64,000 nucleotides of DNA. It comes from a virus. The stretch lies in UHGV virus genome UHGV-0279745, one strand, 5' to 3'. The notes below the pieces were generated by a model. That model saw only the letters and a list, made by a program, of their open reading frames with translations. It made no database searches and was not told where the DNA came from. Made by a program: the position numbers and the translations under genes. Below, in pieces: positions 9,821-62,748 of this stretch. Position 1 is the stretch's first letter, and every line of letters starts with the position of its first letter.

Positions 9821-9858
9821 AGGTACCACCCAACGGTGGTACCTATATTTTATTTTTT
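9821..9858 (+). terminator. rho-independent terminator
   Basis: AGGTACCACC-caac-GGTGGTACCT followed by a T-rich run. Confidence 0.75.
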
Positions 9859-9899
9859 CTCAGATATATTTTACTTAGGTGAGAGTTATGATTAACTCT
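9854..9899 (+). promoter_or_regulatory. conserved promoter-like motif (copy 1) with downstream stem-loop
   Basis: TTTTTTCTCAGATATATTTTACTTAGGTGAGAG; one of four near-identical copies, each after a terminator and before a gene start. Confidence 0.5.
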
Positions 9900-13924: not shown

Positions 13925-14431
13925 ATGAAAGAGACTCTGGATTTTAATCAGCTTGAGCAGCACGATTTTGATCTCGGTGTTCGCGACTTAGAAGCTGACT
14001 ACGAAACGCGTTGTAAAGAATTCTTTAATCGCTACGGGCAATTGATTACCGGGGCATCTGAAGACACCGAATTCTCGTTAGACGATTTCGAAAAGATTCT
14101 ATCTTGCTTTATCACCGACAGCTTAGCGAAACAGGCGTTGCTGGTAGAACAGAACCTGCAAATGGTGGAGCCTACGGATGCTCACGCCGTGCTAAAAGAA
14201 TCCATTATTCCGAACGACGAAATTATGGATGCGGTAGCAGGTATTCGTGGTACGTTCGACAGCGCTGTGGAAGACTATACCGAGCAGCTTCGTGAGTCTG
14301 GGCTAACGTTATGTGCACCTGCGGGCGAACAGTTACCTTCTGAAGAAGAAACGGAAGAAGCACGCAGTCGCTTAGCACGTTATGTGATTACTTCTATTTT
14401 AGTAGACGATCGCGAAGAAAACGTACTGTAA
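13925..14431 (+). CDS. hypothetical acidic protein
   Basis: 168-aa Asp/Glu-rich ORF; terminator follows. Confidence 0.5.
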   Translation: MKETLDFNQLEQHDFDLGVRDLEADYETRCKEFFNRYGQLITGASEDTEFSLDDFEKILSCFITDSLAKQALLVEQNLQMVEPTDAHAVLKESIIPNDEIMDAVAGIRGTFDSAVEDYTEQLRESGLTLCAPAGEQLPSEEETEEARSRLARYVITSILVDDREENVL

Positions 14432-14435
14432 ACTT

Positions 14436-14474
14436 CCCCTCTCTCCGTTTGGAGGGAGGGAGTATTTATTTTTA
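14436..14474 (+). terminator. rho-independent terminator
   Basis: CCCCTCTCTCC-gttt-GGAGGGAGGG followed by a T-run; near-duplicate of the terminator at 15501. Confidence 0.7.
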
Positions 14475-15223: not shown

Positions 15224-15493
15224 ATGGGTAAGATTTATATTGTTGAAAAACGTGCAGGTAATGTTCTTTCCTATTACGAAGAAGGTAAACCTGAAAAGGT
15301 TAAAACACTCAAACTCGACGGATTTGATGTGAAGAGTTTACGCAAGGGTGTGAAGATTACCTTTAAAGGTCTGACTCGCGTAAATAACTTACACATTGTT
15401 AAGGCCGATGGTACGATGGCTGCGTTAGCGCCTGTCAGTGCTGCGAAAACTACAGCCGGTCGTGGTTGCTACGGTAGCAGTCGTAAGATTTAA
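15224..15493 (+). CDS. hypothetical small protein
   Basis: 89-aa ORF downstream of promoter-like motif copy; terminator follows. Confidence 0.5.
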   Translation: MGKIYIVEKRAGNVLSYYEEGKPEKVKTLKLDGFDVKSLRKGVKITFKGLTRVNNLHIVKADGTMAALAPVSAAKTTAGRGCYGSSRKI

Positions 15494-15500
15494 GCAGTGC

Positions 15501-15540
15501 CCCTCTCTCCGTTAGGAGAGAGGGTACTTTTATTTTTCTT
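15501..15540 (+). terminator. rho-independent terminator
   Basis: CCCTCTCTCC-gtta-GGAGAGAGGG followed by a T-run. Confidence 0.75.
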
Positions 15541-19960: not shown

Positions 19961-20005
19961 CCTACCGCCCGATTCTATGGGCGGTAGGTGTTTTTATTTT
20001 TTTTG
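19961..20005 (+). terminator. rho-independent terminator
   Basis: CCTACCGCCC-gattctat-GGGCGGTAGG followed by a T-run. Confidence 0.75.
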
Positions 20006-27916: not shown

Positions 27917-27956
27917 GTAGTAGGGGCTTAGCCCCTACTACCTTTTTTATTTTTTC
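27917..27956 (+). terminator. rho-independent terminator
   Basis: GGTAGTAGGGGC-tta-GCCCCTACTACC followed by a T-run. Confidence 0.8.
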
Positions 27957-28002
27957 TCAGATATATATTACCTAGAGGAGAGTGAAATTTACGTTCACTC
28001 CA
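27951..28002 (+). promoter_or_regulatory. conserved promoter-like motif (copy 3) with downstream stem-loop
   Basis: TTTTTTCTCAGATATATATTACCTAGAGGAGAG, then stem-loop GGAGAGTGAA...TTCACTCC. Confidence 0.5.
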
Positions 28003-32337: not shown

Positions 32338-32390
32338 AATAATTTCAGATATATATTACTTAGGTGAGAGTACAAAAGCTCTCACTTAAC
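32338..32390 (+). promoter_or_regulatory. conserved promoter-like motif (copy 4) with downstream stem-loop
   Basis: ATTTCAGATATATATTACTTAGGTGAGAG, then stem-loop GTGAGAG-tacaaaag-CTCTCAC. Confidence 0.5.
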
Positions 32391-40745: not shown

Positions 40746-40801
40746 GAAAAAATAAAAATACCTACCTCCTATTACGGGAGGTAGGTATACTATTTTTTTT
40801 C
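40746..40801. terminator. bidirectional rho-independent terminator
   Basis: TACCTACCTCC-tattacg-GGAGGTAGGTA flanked by an A-run (left) and T-run (right), between convergent genes. Confidence 0.8.
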
Positions 40802-45279: not shown

Positions 45280-45486
45280 TTACCTTCCCCCCGCACCTTT
45301 ACTACAGCTACCACTGCACGACCAGCTACATCCGCCGTTACAGTTATAATGGCTTAAAGGTAAACCGGCAAGGTTATTGGTTGAAGACACAGTGCCCTGG
45401 TTTGCAATATAGTTGTTTGCGTTAGCGGTCGTAATATACCCTTCCGCTGTTACTAACCGATCACGAAGGTTCTTAAGGCTAATCAC
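45280..45486 (-). CDS. Cys-rich repeat protein C (short paralog)
   Basis: GTG start 2 nt after the stop of paralog B with GGGAGG SD; N-terminal ISLKNLRDRL then NCNGGCSWSCSGSC. Confidence 0.55.
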   Translation of the reverse strand: MISLKNLRDRLVTAEGYITTANANNYIANQGTVSSTNNLAGLPLSHYNCNGGCSWSCSGSCSKGAGGR

Positions 45487-45488
45487 AA

Positions 45489-45887
45489 TTACCTCCCAGA
45501 ACACCCACCAGAACAACTACCTGAGCAGCCTGCAGAACAGTTTCCTACACACGAGTTAGAACAACTCCCCGTACAGCTTCCTGAACAGCCACCAGAACAG
45601 GTATTCGAACATCCACTACAGCCTGCACTACAACCTGATACACAGTTTGCAGAACAGGAAGAACCACAGCCGCCTGATGCGTTCCCTGTACAACCACCAG
45701 AACAGCTCGAACAGGTCCAGCTACAGCTCCCACCACAGTCATAGTGGTTGCGAGCTTGCCCACCGAATAAGTCTGCGTTGTTCGTCGCTTTCCCACGAAT
45801 ATAGTTTTGTACTGCACCCGTATTCTTCAATGCAGTGTTGTCAATGTTATTTAGCCGCGCTTGTAGCGCAGGTAATCCAATTGCCAT
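45489..45887 (-). CDS. Cys/Gly/Ser-rich CxxxC-repeat protein B
   Basis: Strong SD (AAGAGGTGA); ~45-aa N-terminal region then DCGGSCSWTCS and ~20 CxxxC-spaced Cys. Confidence 0.65.
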   Translation of the reverse strand: MAIGLPALQARLNNIDNTALKNTGAVQNYIRGKATNNADLFGGQARNHYDCGGSCSWTCSSCSGGCTGNASGGCGSSCSANCVSGCSAGCSGCSNTCSGGCSGSCTGSCSNSCVGNCSAGCSGSCSGGCSGR

Positions 45888-45897
45888 TTTTCACCTC

Positions 45898-46293
45898 TTA
45901 GGTTGGGCCAGAACAGCCACCAGAGCAAGCACCAGAACAACCCGTAGAACAACGGCCCGAGCAAGCACCCCCACAGGTCCCACTGCAACCTGAGCAGCCA
46001 CCGGAACACGTTGAACTACATCCAGTACACTGGTTACCGCACGCAGAGGAGCAGCTACCTACACACACTGACGTACAGGTGCCCGAACAACTCGTACAGC
46101 CATGCGTACAACCGTTTGAGCACGTCCAGCTGCAACTCCCCCCGCAGTCTAACCGACTTGGCGTCCAACCCGAAAAAGTGTCGGCGGCATTATGTGCTTT
46201 CGACGCAACTTGCGGATCAACACGTGGGCCAGTTGCCATTTGGTTCTCTACGTTGGTGATTCGGTCACGTACATTTTTAACACTGATCGCCAT
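45898..46293 (-). CDS. Cys/Gly/Ser-rich CxxxC-repeat protein A
   Basis: N-terminal MAISVKNVRDRITNVENQ... then DCGGSCSWTCS and a CxxxC-repeat core; first gene after the minus-strand terminator. Confidence 0.65.
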   Translation of the reverse strand: MAISVKNVRDRITNVENQMATGPRVDPQVASKAHNAADTFSGWTPSRLDCGGSCSWTCSNGCTHGCTSCSGTCTSVCVGSCSSACGNQCTGCSSTCSGGCSGCSGTCGGACSGRCSTGCSGACSGGCSGPT

Positions 46294-46304
46294 CACGTAT
46301 CCTT

Positions 46305-46350
46305 AAAATAAAAAAGAATGGAGGACTACGCCCATAAGCATAGTTCCTCC
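46305..46350 (-). terminator. rho-independent terminator (minus strand) between fibritin-like gene and Cys-rich gene A
   Basis: Minus-strand RNA forms GGAGGAACUAUGC-uuaugg-GCGUAGUCCUCC followed by a U-run (A-run 46307-46315 on plus). Confidence 0.65.
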
Positions 46351-46360
46351 TGTAATAAAG

Positions 46361-47560
46361 TTATTTCGTACCCGCTTCTGCCTGAACGTCATCACGGGAC
46401 GTCAAGTTAGCGTTAACGTGTACTGAAGCCTGAACCACACCACCGTATTTCTTGTGGAGATAGCCTGTGTGTGGGTTATCTGCCGCAATATGGTTTTGCA
46501 GGTTCTGATTCGCCTGACTGATCGCGTTCGTGTTATTCGCGACCTGTTGTTTAAGCGCATCCAAGTTTTGTTGCAGATTATCAATTTTCTGATCGGACTC
46601 ATTACCCCGCTGTTCTAACGCAGCAATGCGCTGAATCGCTTGATTGAGTTTGGTGCTCAGATCGTTGATATTTTTCTGTAACTGTAACACTAGCGAATTT
46701 AGGTTCGCCAATGCCAATGCCATTTTCTGGTAGTTTTGTGCAACGATGTTAAGTTGGTCGTTCCACGCTTCCAAAGATTTGACAACAGCATCAATACGTT
46801 TTCCTAACGCTTCATCCGCTTTCTTCAACGCATTAATATCAGTAATGGTTGCATCGATGGCAGACTGTACGTCACGGATAAGTGCACGGATCTCCGTTTC
46901 TGTTAACCCGTTAACCTGGTGAATATCCAGATGGTGGACGTTACCCGTGGCGTTAATGTGCGCGTTCAGCGCGTCCAGGAAATCGTTTTTCAGGCTTTCG
47001 AGAATCGCTTTGATGTTCTCAAGCTGTACAGCATCGCCCGCCGTTATCGCATCTTTAATGCCAGCGAGCACTGTAATGATATATTCGAAGCCGTAAATAT
47101 CGCCGACGTCTTTATACGTCGGTGCCGACGGAAATGTATCAGGAACATTTCGCAAGTCTTTAAAGCCAACAGTTCGATTATCGAGATTCAACTCAGCAAT
47201 CGCCTGTTCTATCGCAGTCACGTTTGCCGACTGCGGACCCCCGACTACTTGCGCCGATACCGTGATATCGGTCGGAATCGCGGTGTTCGTTACAACAACC
47301 GCCATTACCACTTCCCGGTTCTTCGTCAATTTCTCGTAAGCCGGGTGTGCAAAAATCAACTCATAGTCCGTTCCGCGCTCATACGTCGCATCGGGGCGGT
47401 TAGCAACCCGCAAGCGGAACGTATCAGCATAAAACGGACCGTCAGGAAAAGCAAACGCACGGTTAACTTTACCTGTGCCTAACGTAACCTGACGCTCCAC
47501 GGCGTTAGAGGTTAGGGTTCCCGTTAAATCTAAAGGGTATTGGTATACAATGGAGGCCAT
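46361..47560 (-). CDS. fibritin-like coiled-coil fibre protein
   Basis: N-terminal domain shared with the three giant fibre proteins (PDGPFY...GTDYELIF); long Asn/Gln/Leu/Ala-rich heptad region; start trimmed to ATG 47560 after AAGGAGAG. Confidence 0.7.
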   Translation of the reverse strand: MASIVYQYPLDLTGTLTSNAVERQVTLGTGKVNRAFAFPDGPFYADTFRLRVANRPDATYERGTDYELIFAHPAYEKLTKNREVVMAVVVTNTAIPTDITVSAQVVGGPQSANVTAIEQAIAELNLDNRTVGFKDLRNVPDTFPSAPTYKDVGDIYGFEYIITVLAGIKDAITAGDAVQLENIKAILESLKNDFLDALNAHINATGNVHHLDIHQVNGLTETEIRALIRDVQSAIDATITDINALKKADEALGKRIDAVVKSLEAWNDQLNIVAQNYQKMALALANLNSLVLQLQKNINDLSTKLNQAIQRIAALEQRGNESDQKIDNLQQNLDALKQQVANNTNAISQANQNLQNHIAADNPHTGYLHKKYGGVVQASVHVNANLTSRDDVQAEAGTK

Positions 47561-52784: not shown

Positions 52785-52878
52785 CGTAAAGACTCCTACT
52801 TTTAAATAAAATGGATACCCCTCCCCGTTACAGGGAGGGGTTACCTACGGACACACAACTGCCCGCAGGCAGCCTGTC

Positions 52879-61417: not shown

Positions 61418-61485
61418 TCTCTACTCCTATAGTCCGTGGGCGTCGAAGTTCATACTATGACTTGAATCTATAGAGGAAAAGAGCT

Positions 61486-62748
61486 GTGACTACTGCTTAT
61501 CAAGTGCGGCCCGACAGCGCTTTTGGCTTCTCTCGAGAGTCCCGTACCTGGGGAGCCATCGATGTCACGCAACCCTTAAATACGTTGTGTTCAGACTACC
61601 ACACCTTTGAGATCGGTTTAAGTGCACTTGGTAAAGACTATACGTTAGTCAGCCAATACCATCTTGCCGAACTACAAAACCGAACAGACACTTTACAAGA
61701 TTGGTTAAATGAAAAAGCCGGAAACGTCATCCCTACTCTAAAAGCCGGATTGCCGAAACTCGAATTCGGTTGGGCACATTACCAATCGATTAATGCCGAC
61801 GTACCCGTTGAAACATATCTGTGTCCGTCTGGGTACCACCACAGTCAAGATTTCAGCTTAGATGATGCTGATGACGTTGTCATCGTTTGTGAGGACAAGT
61901 GGAAGGACAAATACCGTAATAGTGTACTGTACAACATTAACGGTCAATGGGTACCGCACCAGACAGATACCGTAGGTGTCCGATTACCCGGGGCCGGTAA
62001 AATCGTACGGAGAGCCTGTACGCCAGATATCGGCTGTATGGTTTTTGGTCAGTTAGGGAATGTTAAAACTTACCCCATTGCCAACCTTACCCTAAACAAG
62101 CTCGACACTACACGTGACTATTACTCCACGTTAATGATTTCGCTACCTGAGTCTATTACGGGAAAAACGGTGGGTTTCGTCATCGGTGGACTGTTACGTT
62201 GGTTACCTCCTGGCGGTTATTTCTCCGACCGTGCGATCATGATTTCTTTACCGAATTTTGATCTTGCGCGGACCGTTCTGGAAACCCGTCGCTATTACGA
62301 CTGGGACGCCATCGGTGTAGGGGATTTATCAACGCCTACTAATGTCCAACGCATTCGCAACCCCGAAACATTAAAGGCGCTTTTACTCCACGAGTCTTCG
62401 TTTATCTTTACGGTAGATAATCCGTATTTAGAAGAAGAGGTTGTGGGTGTATCGCATAACGCAGTTTGGGGACGTTGTTATCTCAAGGACCCTAGCGATC
62501 CTGATTCTGAAAAACCATTAGGGTACTTAAATAATCGCTTCGGAAAGACGGTGGGCTATTGGCCTACATGGGAGGAGGGTGAGTGGGTATTTAACACCAC
62601 CGAATTCGACAGTCAAAACTACGTCTTTCGTGAAGCCCGGTGGTATAATCAGAAGAAGATTAACGACGCGCAAGCAATCGTCGGTCCATTCGGTCCCTGG
62701 GAAAAAGTGTATTTAGAAATGCATCGCTTTAGAGCACGAAAAAAATAA
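61486..62748 (+). CDS. hypothetical protein (possibly virion-associated)
   Basis: 420-aa ORF with GTG start after GAGGAAAAGAG; divergent from the fibre operon; bidirectional terminator follows. Confidence 0.55.
   Translation: MTTAYQVRPDSAFGFSRESRTWGAIDVTQPLNTLCSDYHTFEIGLSALGKDYTLVSQYHLAELQNRTDTLQDWLNEKAGNVIPTLKAGLPKLEFGWAHYQSINADVPVETYLCPSGYHHSQDFSLDDADDVVIVCEDKWKDKYRNSVLYNINGQWVPHQTDTVGVRLPGAGKIVRRACTPDIGCMVFGQLGNVKTYPIANLTLNKLDTTRDYYSTLMISLPESITGKTVGFVIGGLLRWLPPGGYFSDRAIMISLPNFDLARTVLETRRYYDWDAIGVGDLSTPTNVQRIRNPETLKALLLHESSFIFTVDNPYLEEEVVGVSHNAVWGRCYLKDPSDPDSEKPLGYLNNRFGKTVGYWPTWEEGEWVFNTTEFDSQNYVFREARWYNQKKINDAQAIVGPFGPWEKVYLEMHRFRARKK

What the first reader, a model, noticed from the sequence alone, without database searches (positions are those of the whole stretch)
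46305..46360. Terminator separates the fibritin-like gene from the Cys-rich/rSAM cluster
The 66-bp gap between the stop of the fibritin-like gene (46361) and the start of Cys-rich gene A (46293) contains a strong minus-strand hairpin followed by a U-run. The cluster is therefore probably expressed at a lower level by read-through, or from its own promoter, which fits an enzyme/substrate accessory module attached to the structural operon.
Basis: seen in the sequence. Interest (0 to 1): 0.45.

Follow-up and report, generated by a model that had tools for sequence, protein, structure and literature searches.

The report
Terminator hairpin hiding a start signal
The hairpin-plus-U-run between a jumbo-phage tail-fibre gene and a cysteine-rich/radical-SAM gene cluster is real and conserved, but what is conserved is the hairpin and a TATG at its tip, which is the start-site signal of phiKZ-type phage RNA polymerases, so it probably both stops incoming transcripts and starts new ones.

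Summary
On the minus strand a 13-pair hairpin (46350-46320, -18.2 kcal/mol) is followed by a 15-nt tract with 12 U (46319-46305). It lies in the 67-nt gap between the tail-fibre gene stop (46363-46361) and the Cys-rich gene start (ATG 46293).

The window comes from an SPN3US-like, phiKZ-related jumbo phage. It holds 25 comparable hairpin+T-tail sites, against about 4 in shuffles.

In 13 distinct orthologous junctions from six genera the stem sequences differ but pairing is kept. The U-run decays and is absent in Derbicusvirus. A TATG sits at the hairpin apex in every one. TATG is the start-site motif of the phiKZ non-virion RNA polymerase.

TATG is the most depleted non-palindromic tetramer in these phages, and it is 3.9-fold enriched 20-60 nt upstream of genes. 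Three further conserved hairpin/apex-TATG/T-run/RBS modules exist in SPN3US, and one of them lies in this window (19961-19988).

Best reading: a nested terminator-promoter module. Upstream transcripts stop, while transcripts starting at G46333 lack the 5' arm and escape termination. No transcript data exist for this phage group. The terminator itself is ordinary. The nested start signal is a modestly novel, testable variant.

The parts
46361..47560 (-). Tail-fibre gene (399 aa; homologue of SPN3US gp167, phiKZ gp131/gp135-type N-domain plus coiled coil). Stop codon TAA at 46363-46361.
   Evidence: tblastn gives 78% identity to SPN3US and 77% to Asesino. It matches phrog_2163. gp167 is a virion tail protein in PMC7411985 Table S2. 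The start was set by alignment with orthologues.
46352..46355 (-). TTAC element. The AC is invariant, and its C lies 19-20 nt upstream of the apical TATG G in all 13 junctions. It partly resembles the phiKZ middle-promoter motif AAanTTACc.
   Evidence: Alignment A1 shows invariant columns A11 and C12. Spacing was read from the sequences. The motif is described in PMC4666361. The bipartite pattern is not enriched window-wide.
46337..46350 (-). 5' arm of the hairpin (GGAGGA-a-CUAUGCU; bulged A at 46344).
   Evidence: RNAfold results.
46333..46336 (-). Apical loop UAUG, which is TATG on the non-template DNA strand. The predicted transcription start is G46333, giving a 40-nt 5' UTR.
   Evidence: It is invariant in 13 distinct orthologous junctions from six genera while the stems differ. 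The phiKZ nvRNAP late promoter is T(-3)ATG(+1) (PMC7598289, PMC4666361, PMC12809450).
46320..46332 (-). 3' arm of the hairpin (GGCGUAG-UCCUCC).
   Evidence: RNAfold results. A compensatory C-G to U-A change is seen in the close relative L030.
46305..46319 (-). U-rich tract AUUCUUUUUUAUUUU (12 U in 15). It contains the UUAU found after phiKZ terminators.
   Evidence: Sequence. Tail counts per lineage. phiKZ terminator motif from PMC10914365.
46300..46304 (-). Shine-Dalgarno AAGGA of the first Cys-rich gene.
   Evidence: AAGG is invariant in alignment A1.
45898..46293 (-). Cys-rich gene A (131 aa, CxxxC repeats), the first gene of the cluster that runs to 40810. The cluster holds Cys-rich B and C, a 299-aa protein, two radical SAM enzymes, a 190-aa protein and a DUF4376 protein.
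   Evidence: ORFs. PHROG and NCBIfam matches. The gene order is conserved in six genera.
19961..19988 (+). Second module of the same design in this window: hairpin CCTACCGCCC-GATTCTAT-GGGCGGTAGG with TATG at 19976-19979. A T-run, the RBS GGGAGG and GTG 20021 follow, leading into a virion/tail operon.
   Evidence: The SPN3US and Asesino orthologues keep TATG and show three compensatory stem changes.
61451..61459 (.). Palindromic CATACTATG, which puts a TATG on each strand of the 68-bp divergent region between the first giant fibre gene (start 61417, minus strand) and the gene at 61486 (plus strand). This is the likely bidirectional start region of the fibre operon.
   Evidence: Conserved in SPN3US while the flanks differ. 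The G-to-start distances are 34 and 27 nt.
52813..52845 (-). Canonical phiKZ-type terminator (CCCCUCCC-UGUAAC-GGGGAGGGG + AUUUUAUUU) between the 1401-aa and 1727-aa fibre genes. Used here as a control whose loop varies freely between genera.
40751..40794 (-). Bidirectional terminator that closes the Cys-rich/rSAM cluster.

Best explanation
The 67-nt gap holds a nested terminator-promoter module for the phage's own RNA polymerase.

(1) Terminator. Transcripts coming from the tail-fibre genes form the 13-pair hairpin followed by the U-tract. A fraction of them end there. This is an intrinsic terminator or attenuator of the kind mapped in phiKZ and 201phi2-1.

(2) Promoter. The DNA at the hairpin apex carries TATG, the start-site motif that the phiKZ-type non-virion RNA polymerase binds on the opened non-template strand. 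Transcription re-initiates at G46333.

(3) Escape. RNAs started there contain only the 3' arm, so they cannot form the hairpin. They run through the U-tract into the Cys-rich/radical-SAM cluster with a 40-nt leader that carries the RBS.

The module thus insulates a non-virion enzyme/substrate cluster from the highly expressed structural genes and gives it its own transcript within a very short gap.

Shown here: the structure, its significance, its conservation with compensatory changes, the invariance of the apical TATG, and the recurrence of the design. Inferred: that 3' ends and 5' ends actually map there, and that SPN3US-like polymerases use TATG as phiKZ does.
For: Structure and significance:
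- Folding gives -23.4 kcal/mol with z -4.25, and the hairpin alone is -18.2 kcal/mol.
- There are 25 comparable sites in the window against 4.1 in shuffles.

Conservation:
- All 13 distinct junctions from the window clade, Seoulvirus, Erskinevirus, Machinavirus, Wellingtonvirus and Derbicusvirus fold into a hairpin (-13 to -26 kcal/mol in the junction folds; hairpins alone -11.8 to -23.5).
- The arm sequences differ between lineages, and there are clean compensatory changes: window vs L030 one, window vs SPN3US three, Phobos vs EarlPhillipIV one.

The TATG:
- It is invariant at the apex in all 13.
- Loops of control terminators in the same operon differ in nearly every genus.
- A conserved AC lies at a fixed 19-20 nt upstream, although its distance from the stop codon varies from 9 to 13 nt.
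- TATG/CATA is the most depleted non-palindromic tetramer in the window (O/E 0.62). It is also strongly depleted in every SPN3US-like locus (0.37-0.65; the top non-palindromic tetramer in most, second in the Caitlin locus). E. coli gives 0.92 and phiKZ 0.75.
- TATG is 3.85-fold enriched 20-60 nt upstream of start codons, making it the top non-terminator tetramer there.
- A conserved TATG pair lies in the only possible promoter region of the fibre operon.
- A conserved TATGAC follows terminators in Machinavirus and Derbicusvirus.

Recurrence:
- SPN3US has four strong intergenic hairpin/apex-TATG/T-run/RBS modules.
- All four are conserved in other genera, with covarying stems and an invariant (T/A)TATG at the boundary of the loop and the 3' arm.

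Literature:
- TATG with G as +1 is necessary for phiKZ nvRNAP transcription and is bound as single-stranded non-template DNA (PMC4666361, PMC12809450).
- Hairpin terminators are mapped in phiKZ (133) and 201phi2-1 (132) (PMC10914365, PMC11512511).
- SPN3US encodes the two multisubunit RNAPs (PMC7598289; annotation).
- The SPN3US homologues downstream of the junction are non-virion proteins, while the upstream ones are abundant virion proteins.
Against: - No 5'- or 3'-end mapping exists for any SPN3US-like phage in the searchable literature.
- The U-run is weak in Wellingtonvirus and absent in Derbicusvirus, so termination may not be the conserved function.
- A distant lineage (L038) keeps a hairpin at the same junction but has no TATG.
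- The phiKZ model late promoter P119L has no hairpin around its TATG, so the nesting is not a general promoter requirement.
- The apex enrichment of TATG genome-wide is modest: 6 against 2.05 expected among 194 hairpins.
- The phiKZ terminator consensus loop (HWWD followed by G) would yield xTAT|G by chance in roughly 1 of 12 such hairpins.
- TATG depletion is strongest on the antisense strand of genes (0.92 vs 2.47 per kb) and may be partly driven by codon usage.
- The 1727-aa fibre gene lies behind a stronger terminator with no TATG. Read-through or antitermination must therefore work in this operon, and it could serve the cluster as well.
Confidence: 0.48

Rival explanations
1. It is a plain intrinsic terminator or attenuator. 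The cluster is expressed only by read-through, possibly helped by an antitermination factor. The apical TATG is kept for a reason unrelated to initiation, for example a preferred A/U-rich loop for termination by the phage polymerase or a binding site for a phage factor.
For: The hairpin and U-tract are as strong as mapped phiKZ-type terminators (PMC10914365). The phiKZ terminator consensus has an A/T-rich four-base loop followed by G, and UAUG-G fits it. The 1727-aa gene behind the stronger 52845-52813 terminator has no TATG, so read-through must occur in this operon. Antitermination is suspected in 201phi2-1 (PMC11512511).
Against: Loops of other terminators in the same operon vary freely between genera, whereas TATG is invariant in four independent modules. 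The U-run, which is needed for termination, is the part that decays. This rival does not explain the genome-wide TATG depletion or its enrichment upstream of genes.
Confidence: 0.25
2. It is mainly a promoter-associated structure. The inverted repeat exists to present TATG in an easily opened or extruded loop for the non-virion polymerase, and termination is incidental or negligible.
For: The hairpin and TATG are conserved even where the U-run is absent, as in Derbicusvirus. nvRNAP binds TATG only on an opened non-template strand, and it needs undefined, non-consensus flanking determinants, mainly downstream (PMC12809450, PMC4666361). Hairpin-form promoters exist for phage N4 virion RNAP (own knowledge).
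Against: phiKZ P119L and the gp131 upstream TATG have no enclosing hairpin. Most TATG sites upstream of genes in the window are not in hairpins. In the window clade the U-tract is long and well kept, which suggests selection for termination there.
Confidence: 0.1
3. It is an RNA stability or processing element. The hairpin would protect the 3' end of the fibre mRNA, or be cut in its loop by a nuclease, separating the operon transcript into differently stable halves.
For: Every gap in this operon carries a conserved hairpin. One of them has no U-run (47595-47578), and in the 1401|1727 gap the terminator is preceded by a second hairpin. SPN3US encodes ribonucleases (annotation).
Against: No known nuclease specificity explains an invariant UAUG. 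The hairpin plus U-run in the window clade is the classic terminator arrangement. The TATG statistics point to a DNA-level signal.
Confidence: 0.08
4. The conserved ATG within TATG is the start of a small upstream ORF (MLMGVVLHSFLF in the window). It would be served by the SD-like 5' arm GGAGGA and would couple or tune translation of the first Cys-rich gene.
For: AGGAGG lies 4 nt before the first ATG in the window clade, and the mini-ORF stops at UAA overlapping the RBS.
Against: Across lineages the ORF ranges from 8 to more than 40 codons, has no conserved stop, frame end or peptide, and has no SD in SPN3US or Wellingtonvirus. The SD-like arm is base-paired in read-through RNA and absent from RNA started at the loop.
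Confidence: 0.03

Closest known systems
Intrinsic terminators of phiKZ and 201phi2-1 mapped by ONT-cappable-seq (PMC10914365, PMC11512511)
   Same: It is a stable stem-loop just after a stop codon, followed by a U-rich stretch containing UUAU. It acts on phage multisubunit RNA polymerases in a related jumbo phage. It has an A/U-rich four-base loop followed by G. There are many such sites per genome: 25 in this 64-kb window and 194 candidates in SPN3US.
   Different: The arm polarity is reversed. Here the 5' arm is purine-rich (GGAGGA) and the 3' arm is UCCUCC, whereas the phiKZ consensus has a C-rich 5' arm and a G-rich 3' arm. The canonical type does occur elsewhere in the window, for example at 52845-52813. 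No 3' ends have been mapped in this phage group, and the U-run is not conserved across genera.
phiKZ non-virion RNAP late promoter, 5'-T(-3)ATG(+1)-3' (P119L; PMC4666361, PMC12809450)
   Same: The four-base motif is the same, it is invariant across six genera, and it lies 26-40 nt upstream of the start codon on the coding strand. The phage group encodes homologous polymerase subunits.
   Different: Here the motif lies at the apex of a terminator hairpin, whereas P119L has no enclosing inverted repeat. Use of TATG by SPN3US-like polymerases is inferred, not shown.
phiKZ middle promoters (AAanTTACc around -24, some with TATG at the start site; PMC4666361)
   Same: A TTAC/TAAC/AAAC element with an invariant AC lies at a fixed distance (C at -19/-20) from the TATG G.
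   Different: Only the AC is invariant. The spacing is about 2 nt shorter than described for phiKZ, and the bipartite pattern is not enriched in the window.
Hairpin-form early promoters of phage N4 virion RNAP (own knowledge, not checked here)
   Same: A promoter signal would be displayed on a DNA hairpin formed by a short inverted repeat.
   Different: N4 uses a single-subunit T7-like polymerase, a 5-7 bp stem with a three-base loop, and starts downstream of the hairpin. Here the polymerase is multisubunit and the proposed start lies in the loop. This is not a member of that family.
CXXX-repeat peptide / radical SAM maturase systems (NCBIfam TIGR04114 target, TIGR04115 maturase)
   Same: This concerns the downstream cluster. 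It has Cys-every-fourth-residue repeat proteins next to an rSAM/SPASM enzyme that aligns over positions 3-345 of the 359-position TIGR04115 model.
   Different: The maturase scores 114.7 bits against a cut-off of 350. The targets are 131-132 aa with a conserved 50-residue N-terminal region and occur in three paralogous copies. There is a second rSAM and three further conserved proteins, and the context is the tail-fibre operon of a lytic jumbo phage.

Membership tests
Intrinsic (factor-independent) transcription terminator | Stable G+C-containing stem-loop in the RNA | tested here: met
   There are 13 pairs at -18.2 kcal/mol. The region folds with z -4.25, and 0 of 200 shuffles fold as well.
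Intrinsic (factor-independent) transcription terminator | U-rich tract immediately 3' of the stem | tested here: met
   AUUCUUUUUUAUUUU has 12 U in 15. The tract is strong in the window clade and Erskinevirus, weaker in SPN3US, Machinavirus and Wellingtonvirus, and absent in Derbicusvirus.
Intrinsic (factor-independent) transcription terminator | Co-oriented with, and just downstream of, the end of a transcription unit | tested here: met
   It starts 10 nt after the fibre stop codon on the coding strand.
Intrinsic (factor-independent) transcription terminator | RNA 3' ends map in the U-tract and transcript coverage falls across it | not testable with these tools
   No transcript-end data for SPN3US-like phages were found.
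phiKZ-type conserved terminator motif (BCCYCCCCHWWDGGGRRGGBYTTAT, PMC10914365) | C-rich 5' arm and G-rich 3' arm | tested here: not met
   The 5' arm is GGAGGAaCUAUGCU and the 3' arm is GGCGUAGUCCUCC, which is the opposite polarity. Canonical examples are at 52845-52813, 15491-15532 and 14423-14465.
phiKZ-type conserved terminator motif (BCCYCCCCHWWDGGGRRGGBYTTAT, PMC10914365) | A/T-rich four-base loop followed by G, and TTAT after the stem | tested here: met
   The loop UAUG fits HWWD and is followed by GG. The tail contains UUUUAUUUU.
phiKZ nvRNAP late promoter | 5'-TATG-3' on the non-template strand, upstream of a gene | tested here: met
   TATG lies at 46336-46333, 40 nt before ATG 46293. 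It is invariant in 13 junctions from six genera.
phiKZ nvRNAP late promoter | Transcription starts at the G of TATG, and the motif is required | not testable with these tools
   This needs 5'-end mapping or in vitro transcription. Only indirect support is available: TATG depletion and enrichment upstream of genes.
phiKZ nvRNAP late promoter | The phage encodes the five-subunit non-virion RNAP | tested here: inconclusive
   The close relative SPN3US carries several split RNAP beta/beta' genes (PMC7598289). No such gene lies in this window, so it was not shown for this phage itself.
phiKZ middle promoter | AAanTTACc element centred near -24 | tested here: inconclusive
   UUUAUUACA spans -26 to -18, and only the AC is invariant. 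The pattern is not enriched in the window.
N4-type hairpin promoter | Recognition by a single-subunit virion RNAP of a 5-7 bp stem with a three-base loop, with the start downstream of the hairpin | tested here: not met
   The stem has 13 pairs, the loop has 4 bases, and the proposed start lies inside the loop. The phage group uses multisubunit RNAPs.
CXXX-repeat target / rSAM maturase system (TIGR04114/TIGR04115), downstream cluster | Maturase scores above the TIGR04115 cut-off | tested here: not met
   It scores 114.7 bits against a cut-off of 350, although the alignment covers positions 3-345 of 359 with E 6.5e-33.
CXXX-repeat target / rSAM maturase system (TIGR04114/TIGR04115), downstream cluster | An adjacent protein with CXXX repeats matches TIGR04114 | tested here: met
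   Cys-rich B scores 20.4 bits against a cut-off of 20. Three paralogues lie directly upstream of the enzymes.

The most novel reading that the evidence does not exclude
SPN3US-like jumbo phages use a recurrent nested terminator-promoter module. The start-site motif TATG of the non-virion RNA polymerase lies at the apex of an intrinsic terminator hairpin, with the +1 G at the boundary of the loop and the 3' arm. A single element of about 50 nt therefore stops incoming transcripts and launches terminator-immune ones. Four such modules exist in SPN3US, all conserved across genera. The inverted repeat may also help expose TATG as single-stranded DNA, which would bear on the unexplained promoter specificity of these polymerases.
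Probability: 0.45. Interest if true: 0.6.

Novelty: new variant of a known kind. Interest (0 to 1): 0.42.

Why it matters
Nucleus-forming jumbo phages transcribe inside a protein shell with their own polymerases and without coupled translation. Short cis-elements must therefore carry all operon insulation and re-initiation.

No transcription start or end map exists for the SPN3US group in the literature I could search. This analysis gives four exact, conserved start-site predictions in SPN3US: nt 144258(-), 105782(+), 200931(+) and 225637(+). It also gives independent sequence evidence that TATG is under genome-wide selection in these phages.

If the nested design is confirmed, it would be a compact insulator-plus-promoter part. 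It would also be a natural test case for how a four-base motif can specify a promoter. If it is not confirmed, the element remains an ordinary, well-conserved phage terminator marking the boundary between virion genes and a CXXX-repeat/radical-SAM modification cluster.

Tried and rejected
- Megablast of the region against phage records found nothing. Relatives were reachable only at protein level.
- Rfam found no family in the whole window.
- The built-in terminator scan missed the hairpin because of its bulge, so a custom scan was written.
- RNAalifold on a MAFFT alignment of 11 hairpins gave no consensus structure. The stems have different lengths and registers when anchored on TATG. I therefore did not run a column-based covariation count. 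I folded each sequence on its own and compared pairs by rank from the loop. That comparison can overcount when stems differ by an inserted pair.
- The mini-ORF starting at the conserved ATG was rejected because neither its length, frame end nor SD is conserved.
- The bipartite pattern WWAC-N15/16-TATG is not enriched in the window.
- The idea that an enclosing hairpin is the missing general determinant of nvRNAP late promoters was rejected. phiKZ P119L and the gp131 upstream TATG lack one.
- As a positive control, upstream TATG enrichment in 34 kb of phiKZ was weak (6 vs 4 expected).
- Colinearity with SPN3US was assumed and failed for the second module. The orthologue was found by protein search instead.
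- The supplementary TSS/TTS tables of the phiKZ and 201phi2-1 papers are not held. Ceyssens 2014 and Weintraub 2019 could not be read.
Full report
**What is at the coordinates.** The minus strand downstream of the tail-fibre gene reads UAA-CUUUAUUACA-GGAGGAaCUAUGCU-UAUG-GGCGUAG-UCCUCC-AUUCUUUUUUAUUUU-AAGGA-UACGUG-AUG.
- The hairpin occupies 46350-46320. It has 13 pairs, one bulged A, and a four-base loop at 46336-46333.
- The U-rich tract occupies 46319-46305, the RBS 46304-46300, and the conserved start codon is ATG 46293.
- The region folds at -23.4 kcal/mol with z = -4.25, and no shuffle in 200 does as well. The hairpin alone is -18.2 kcal/mol.
- The built-in scan missed it because of the bulge.
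- A custom scan finds 25 hairpins of at least -15 kcal/mol with a T-tail in the window, against a mean of 4.1 in dinucleotide shuffles.

**What the window is.** There is no close DNA match in the phage collection.
- The upstream protein is 78% identical to SPN3US gp167 and 77% to the Erwinia phage Asesino homologue.
- The gene order is shared with Seoulvirus, Erskinevirus, Machinavirus, Wellingtonvirus and Derbicusvirus: three giant fibre genes, this 399-aa fibre gene, three Cys-rich genes, a 299-aa gene, two radical SAM genes, a 190-aa gene and a DUF4376 gene.
- These are phiKZ-related jumbo phages that carry their own multisubunit RNA polymerases (PMC7598289; annotation).
- The fibre protein shares its N-terminal region with phiKZ gp135, one of the gp131 paralogues that build the peripheral baseplate fibres (PMC13250141).
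- It has no fibritin family match, only coiled-coil noise.

**The downstream cluster.**
- The 440-aa enzyme aligns over nearly the whole TIGR04115 model, 'radical SAM peptide maturase, CXXX-repeat target family' (E 6.5e-33). It also aligns with the PapB ranthipeptide maturase, in both cases below the curated cut-offs.
- Cys-rich B reaches the cut-off of TIGR04114, the CXXX-repeat target.
- In SPN3US particle proteomics gp167-170 are abundant tail proteins. gp162, gp164 and gp165 have no spectra in purified virions and 2-7 in crude mutant preparations. gp161, gp163 and gp166 are not listed (PMC7411985 Table S2).
- The hairpin thus lies at the boundary between virion and non-virion genes. These samples are particle-enriched, so they say nothing reliable about relative expression.

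**Comparative anatomy of the junction.** I collected 13 distinct junction sequences from six genera, plus metagenomic relatives.
- Each folds on its own into a hairpin of -13 to -26 kcal/mol, with z from -2.7 to -6.2.
- The arms differ between lineages: GGAGGAaCUAUGC, GAGCcGGACUAUG, GAGGACCUG, CACGGGCCUCG and AGGGUGuuACUC.
- Clean compensatory changes occur between close relatives: window vs L030, C-G to U-A; Phobos vs EarlPhillipIV, U-A to C-G; window vs SPN3US, three.
- A column-based covariation count was not possible, because the stems have different registers relative to the conserved loop motif.

Two features behave unexpectedly.
- The U-run is not conserved. It has 9-10 U in 12 in the window clade and Erskinevirus, about 7 in SPN3US and Machinavirus, is weak in Wellingtonvirus, and is absent in Derbicusvirus, where the stem abuts the RBS.
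- The apex always carries TATG, either as the whole loop or with its G as the first base of the 3' arm.
- By contrast, the loops of the 1401|1727 terminator and of the end-of-cluster terminator differ in nearly every genus.
- An AC, within TTAC, TAAC or AAAC, is also invariant. It lies 19-20 nt upstream of the TATG G, although its distance from the stop codon varies from 9 to 13 nt.

**Why TATG matters.**
- In phiKZ the non-virion RNA polymerase starts late transcripts at the G of 5'-TATG-3', and each of the four bases is required in vitro (PMC4666361).
- The motif is bound as single-stranded non-template DNA under the beta-lobe (PMC12809450).
- phiKZ middle promoters have AAanTTACc near -24, sometimes together with a TATG.
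- No start-site map exists for SPN3US-like phages in the literature I could search, so I looked for indirect evidence that TATG is a signal in this group.
  - (a) TATG/CATA is the most depleted non-palindromic tetramer in the window (O/E 0.62). It is also strongly depleted in every SPN3US-like locus tested (0.37-0.65; the top non-palindromic tetramer in most, second in the Caitlin locus). E. coli gives 0.92 and 34 kb of phiKZ gives 0.75.
  - (b) In the 35 upstream gaps of at least 30 nt, TATG occurs 10 times in the -20 to -60 window. That is 3.85 times its genome frequency and the highest enrichment of any tetramer that is not part of a terminator. Its complement occurs 4 times.
  - (c) The 68-bp divergent region that must hold the promoter of the fibre operon contains a palindrome placing TATG on both strands, 34 and 27 nt from the two start codons. 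It is conserved in SPN3US.
  - (d) In Machinavirus and Derbicusvirus a conserved TATGAC follows the end-of-cluster terminator upstream of the next gene.
- Caveat: the depletion is strongest on the antisense strand of genes (0.92 vs 2.47 per kb) and may be partly driven by codon usage.

**The design recurs.**
- The window has a second hairpin with TATG at the loop/3'-arm boundary, followed by a T-run, an RBS and a start codon (19961-19988, upstream of a virion/tail operon).
- Its SPN3US and Asesino orthologues keep TATG through three compensatory stem changes.
- I scanned the complete SPN3US genome, fetched. Of 194 terminator-like hairpins, six have TATG at the apex against 2.05 expected.
- Four of these are strong intergenic modules with the full layout: G at 105782(+), 200931(+), 225637(+) and 144258(-).
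- The two not covered by the window are also conserved in other genera, with covarying stems and an invariant UUAUG/AUAUG.
- Caveat: the phiKZ terminator consensus has an A/T-rich four-base loop followed by G, so such loops arise by chance fairly often. The argument therefore rests on cross-genus invariance, not on the count.

**Mechanism proposed.**
- Transcripts entering from the fibre genes form the hairpin and stop, at least in part, in the U-tract.
- The polymerase also initiates at the apical G.
- RNAs born there carry only the 3' arm. They cannot form the terminator and continue into the cluster with a 40-nt leader.
- This gives insulation and re-initiation within 67 nt. It suits a phage whose transcription is uncoupled from translation inside a nucleus-like shell (PMC12908238 abstract).
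- I put about 0.75 on some termination in this phage, about 0.55 on initiation at the TATG, and 0.45-0.5 on both together.

**Against the model.**
- There are no transcript data.
- The U-run is lost in one genus.
- A distant lineage (L038, 39% fibre identity, also fibre followed by Cys-rich genes) keeps a hairpin but has no TATG and no SD.
- phiKZ P119L has no enclosing hairpin.
- The 1727-aa gene behind a stronger terminator has no TATG, so read-through or antitermination must work in this operon.

**Rivals.**
- A plain attenuator with read-through only (0.25).
- A promoter-presenting inverted repeat with negligible termination (0.10).
- An RNA stability or processing hairpin (0.08).
- A small upstream ORF starting at the conserved ATG (0.03). 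This was rejected because its length, end and SD are not conserved.

**Verdict.** Its interpretation is partly right: the element is a terminator-like boundary before an enzyme/substrate cluster. The most informative feature was missed. The conserved core is the hairpin with an apical TATG, most simply read as a phage-polymerase start site nested in the terminator. The terminator is ordinary for this phage family. The nested arrangement is a new variant that remains to be shown experimentally.

Noticed in passing
L001 10276-10668 and 11098-11305 (SPN3US NC_027402); L002 10274-10657 (Asesino NC_031107); window 45898-46293: The first Cys-rich CxxxC-repeat gene is not annotated in the RefSeq records of SPN3US and Asesino, nor is the third one in SPN3US. 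SPN3US gp166 is also annotated with a start that is too late. Proteomic searches against those annotations could not have found these proteins.
   Followed up: partly
window 9857-9878, 27954-27975, 32342-32363 (+): There are three copies of an AT-rich motif TCAGATATAT(A/T)TTAC(T/C)TAG, against 0 expected in shuffles. The first two lie just after a terminator hairpin and upstream of plus-strand genes. The motif looks like the early (virion RNAP) promoter class described for phiKZ-like phages.
   Followed up: partly
window 52880-52813 (-): The gap between the 1401-aa and 1727-aa fibre genes holds two hairpins in tandem. Both are conserved with covarying stems in SPN3US, Asesino and Machinavirus. 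The second is followed by a conserved GGUAUCC(A/G)UUUUAUU. There is no TATG and only 28 nt to the next start codon.
   Followed up: partly
window 47595-47578 (-): A small hairpin CGAGAC-AAGGAC-GUCUCG without a U-run lies between the 1727-aa gene and the 399-aa fibre gene. It is conserved with compensatory changes in four genera and has a semi-conserved A(A/G/C)GGA(C/A/U) loop. Its function is unknown.
   Followed up: no
window 47616-47613 (-): A TATG lies inside the last codons of the 1727-aa gene (…CUU AUG UUU…), 53 nt upstream of the fibre start. It is conserved in four genera. It could be a start site for the fibre gene or simply reflect a conserved Leu-Met.
   Followed up: no
whole window and all SPN3US-like loci: TATG/CATA is the most under-represented non-palindromic tetranucleotide in nearly every locus (O/E 0.37-0.65). 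Only CTAG and GATC, plus AATT in a few loci, are lower. The deficit is about 2.7-fold stronger on the antisense strand of genes.
   Followed up: yes
L038 1425-1470 (metagenome contig CEUP01014081.1): A distant lineage (39% fibre identity) has the same fibre-to-Cys-rich junction. Its hairpin is AGGGUGGUG-GUAA-CGCCACCCU, there is no TATG, and there is no recognisable Shine-Dalgarno before the Cys-rich gene, whose start lies 12 nt after the stem.
   Followed up: partly
window 45898-46293, 45489-45887, 45280-45489 (-): The three Cys-rich proteins share a roughly 50-residue N-terminal region (…KNVRDRL…NAxDxFxG…DCGGxCSWxCS) before the CxxxC repeats. The NAxDxFxG stretch recalls motifs of phage tail-fibre repeats. 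They may therefore be modified fibre-associated proteins rather than free peptides.
   Followed up: no
SPN3US NC_027402 200917-200940: The module upstream of mazG is a perfect palindrome (TAGGGTGTCCATATGGACACCCTA), so it places TATG at the apex on both strands.
   Followed up: partly
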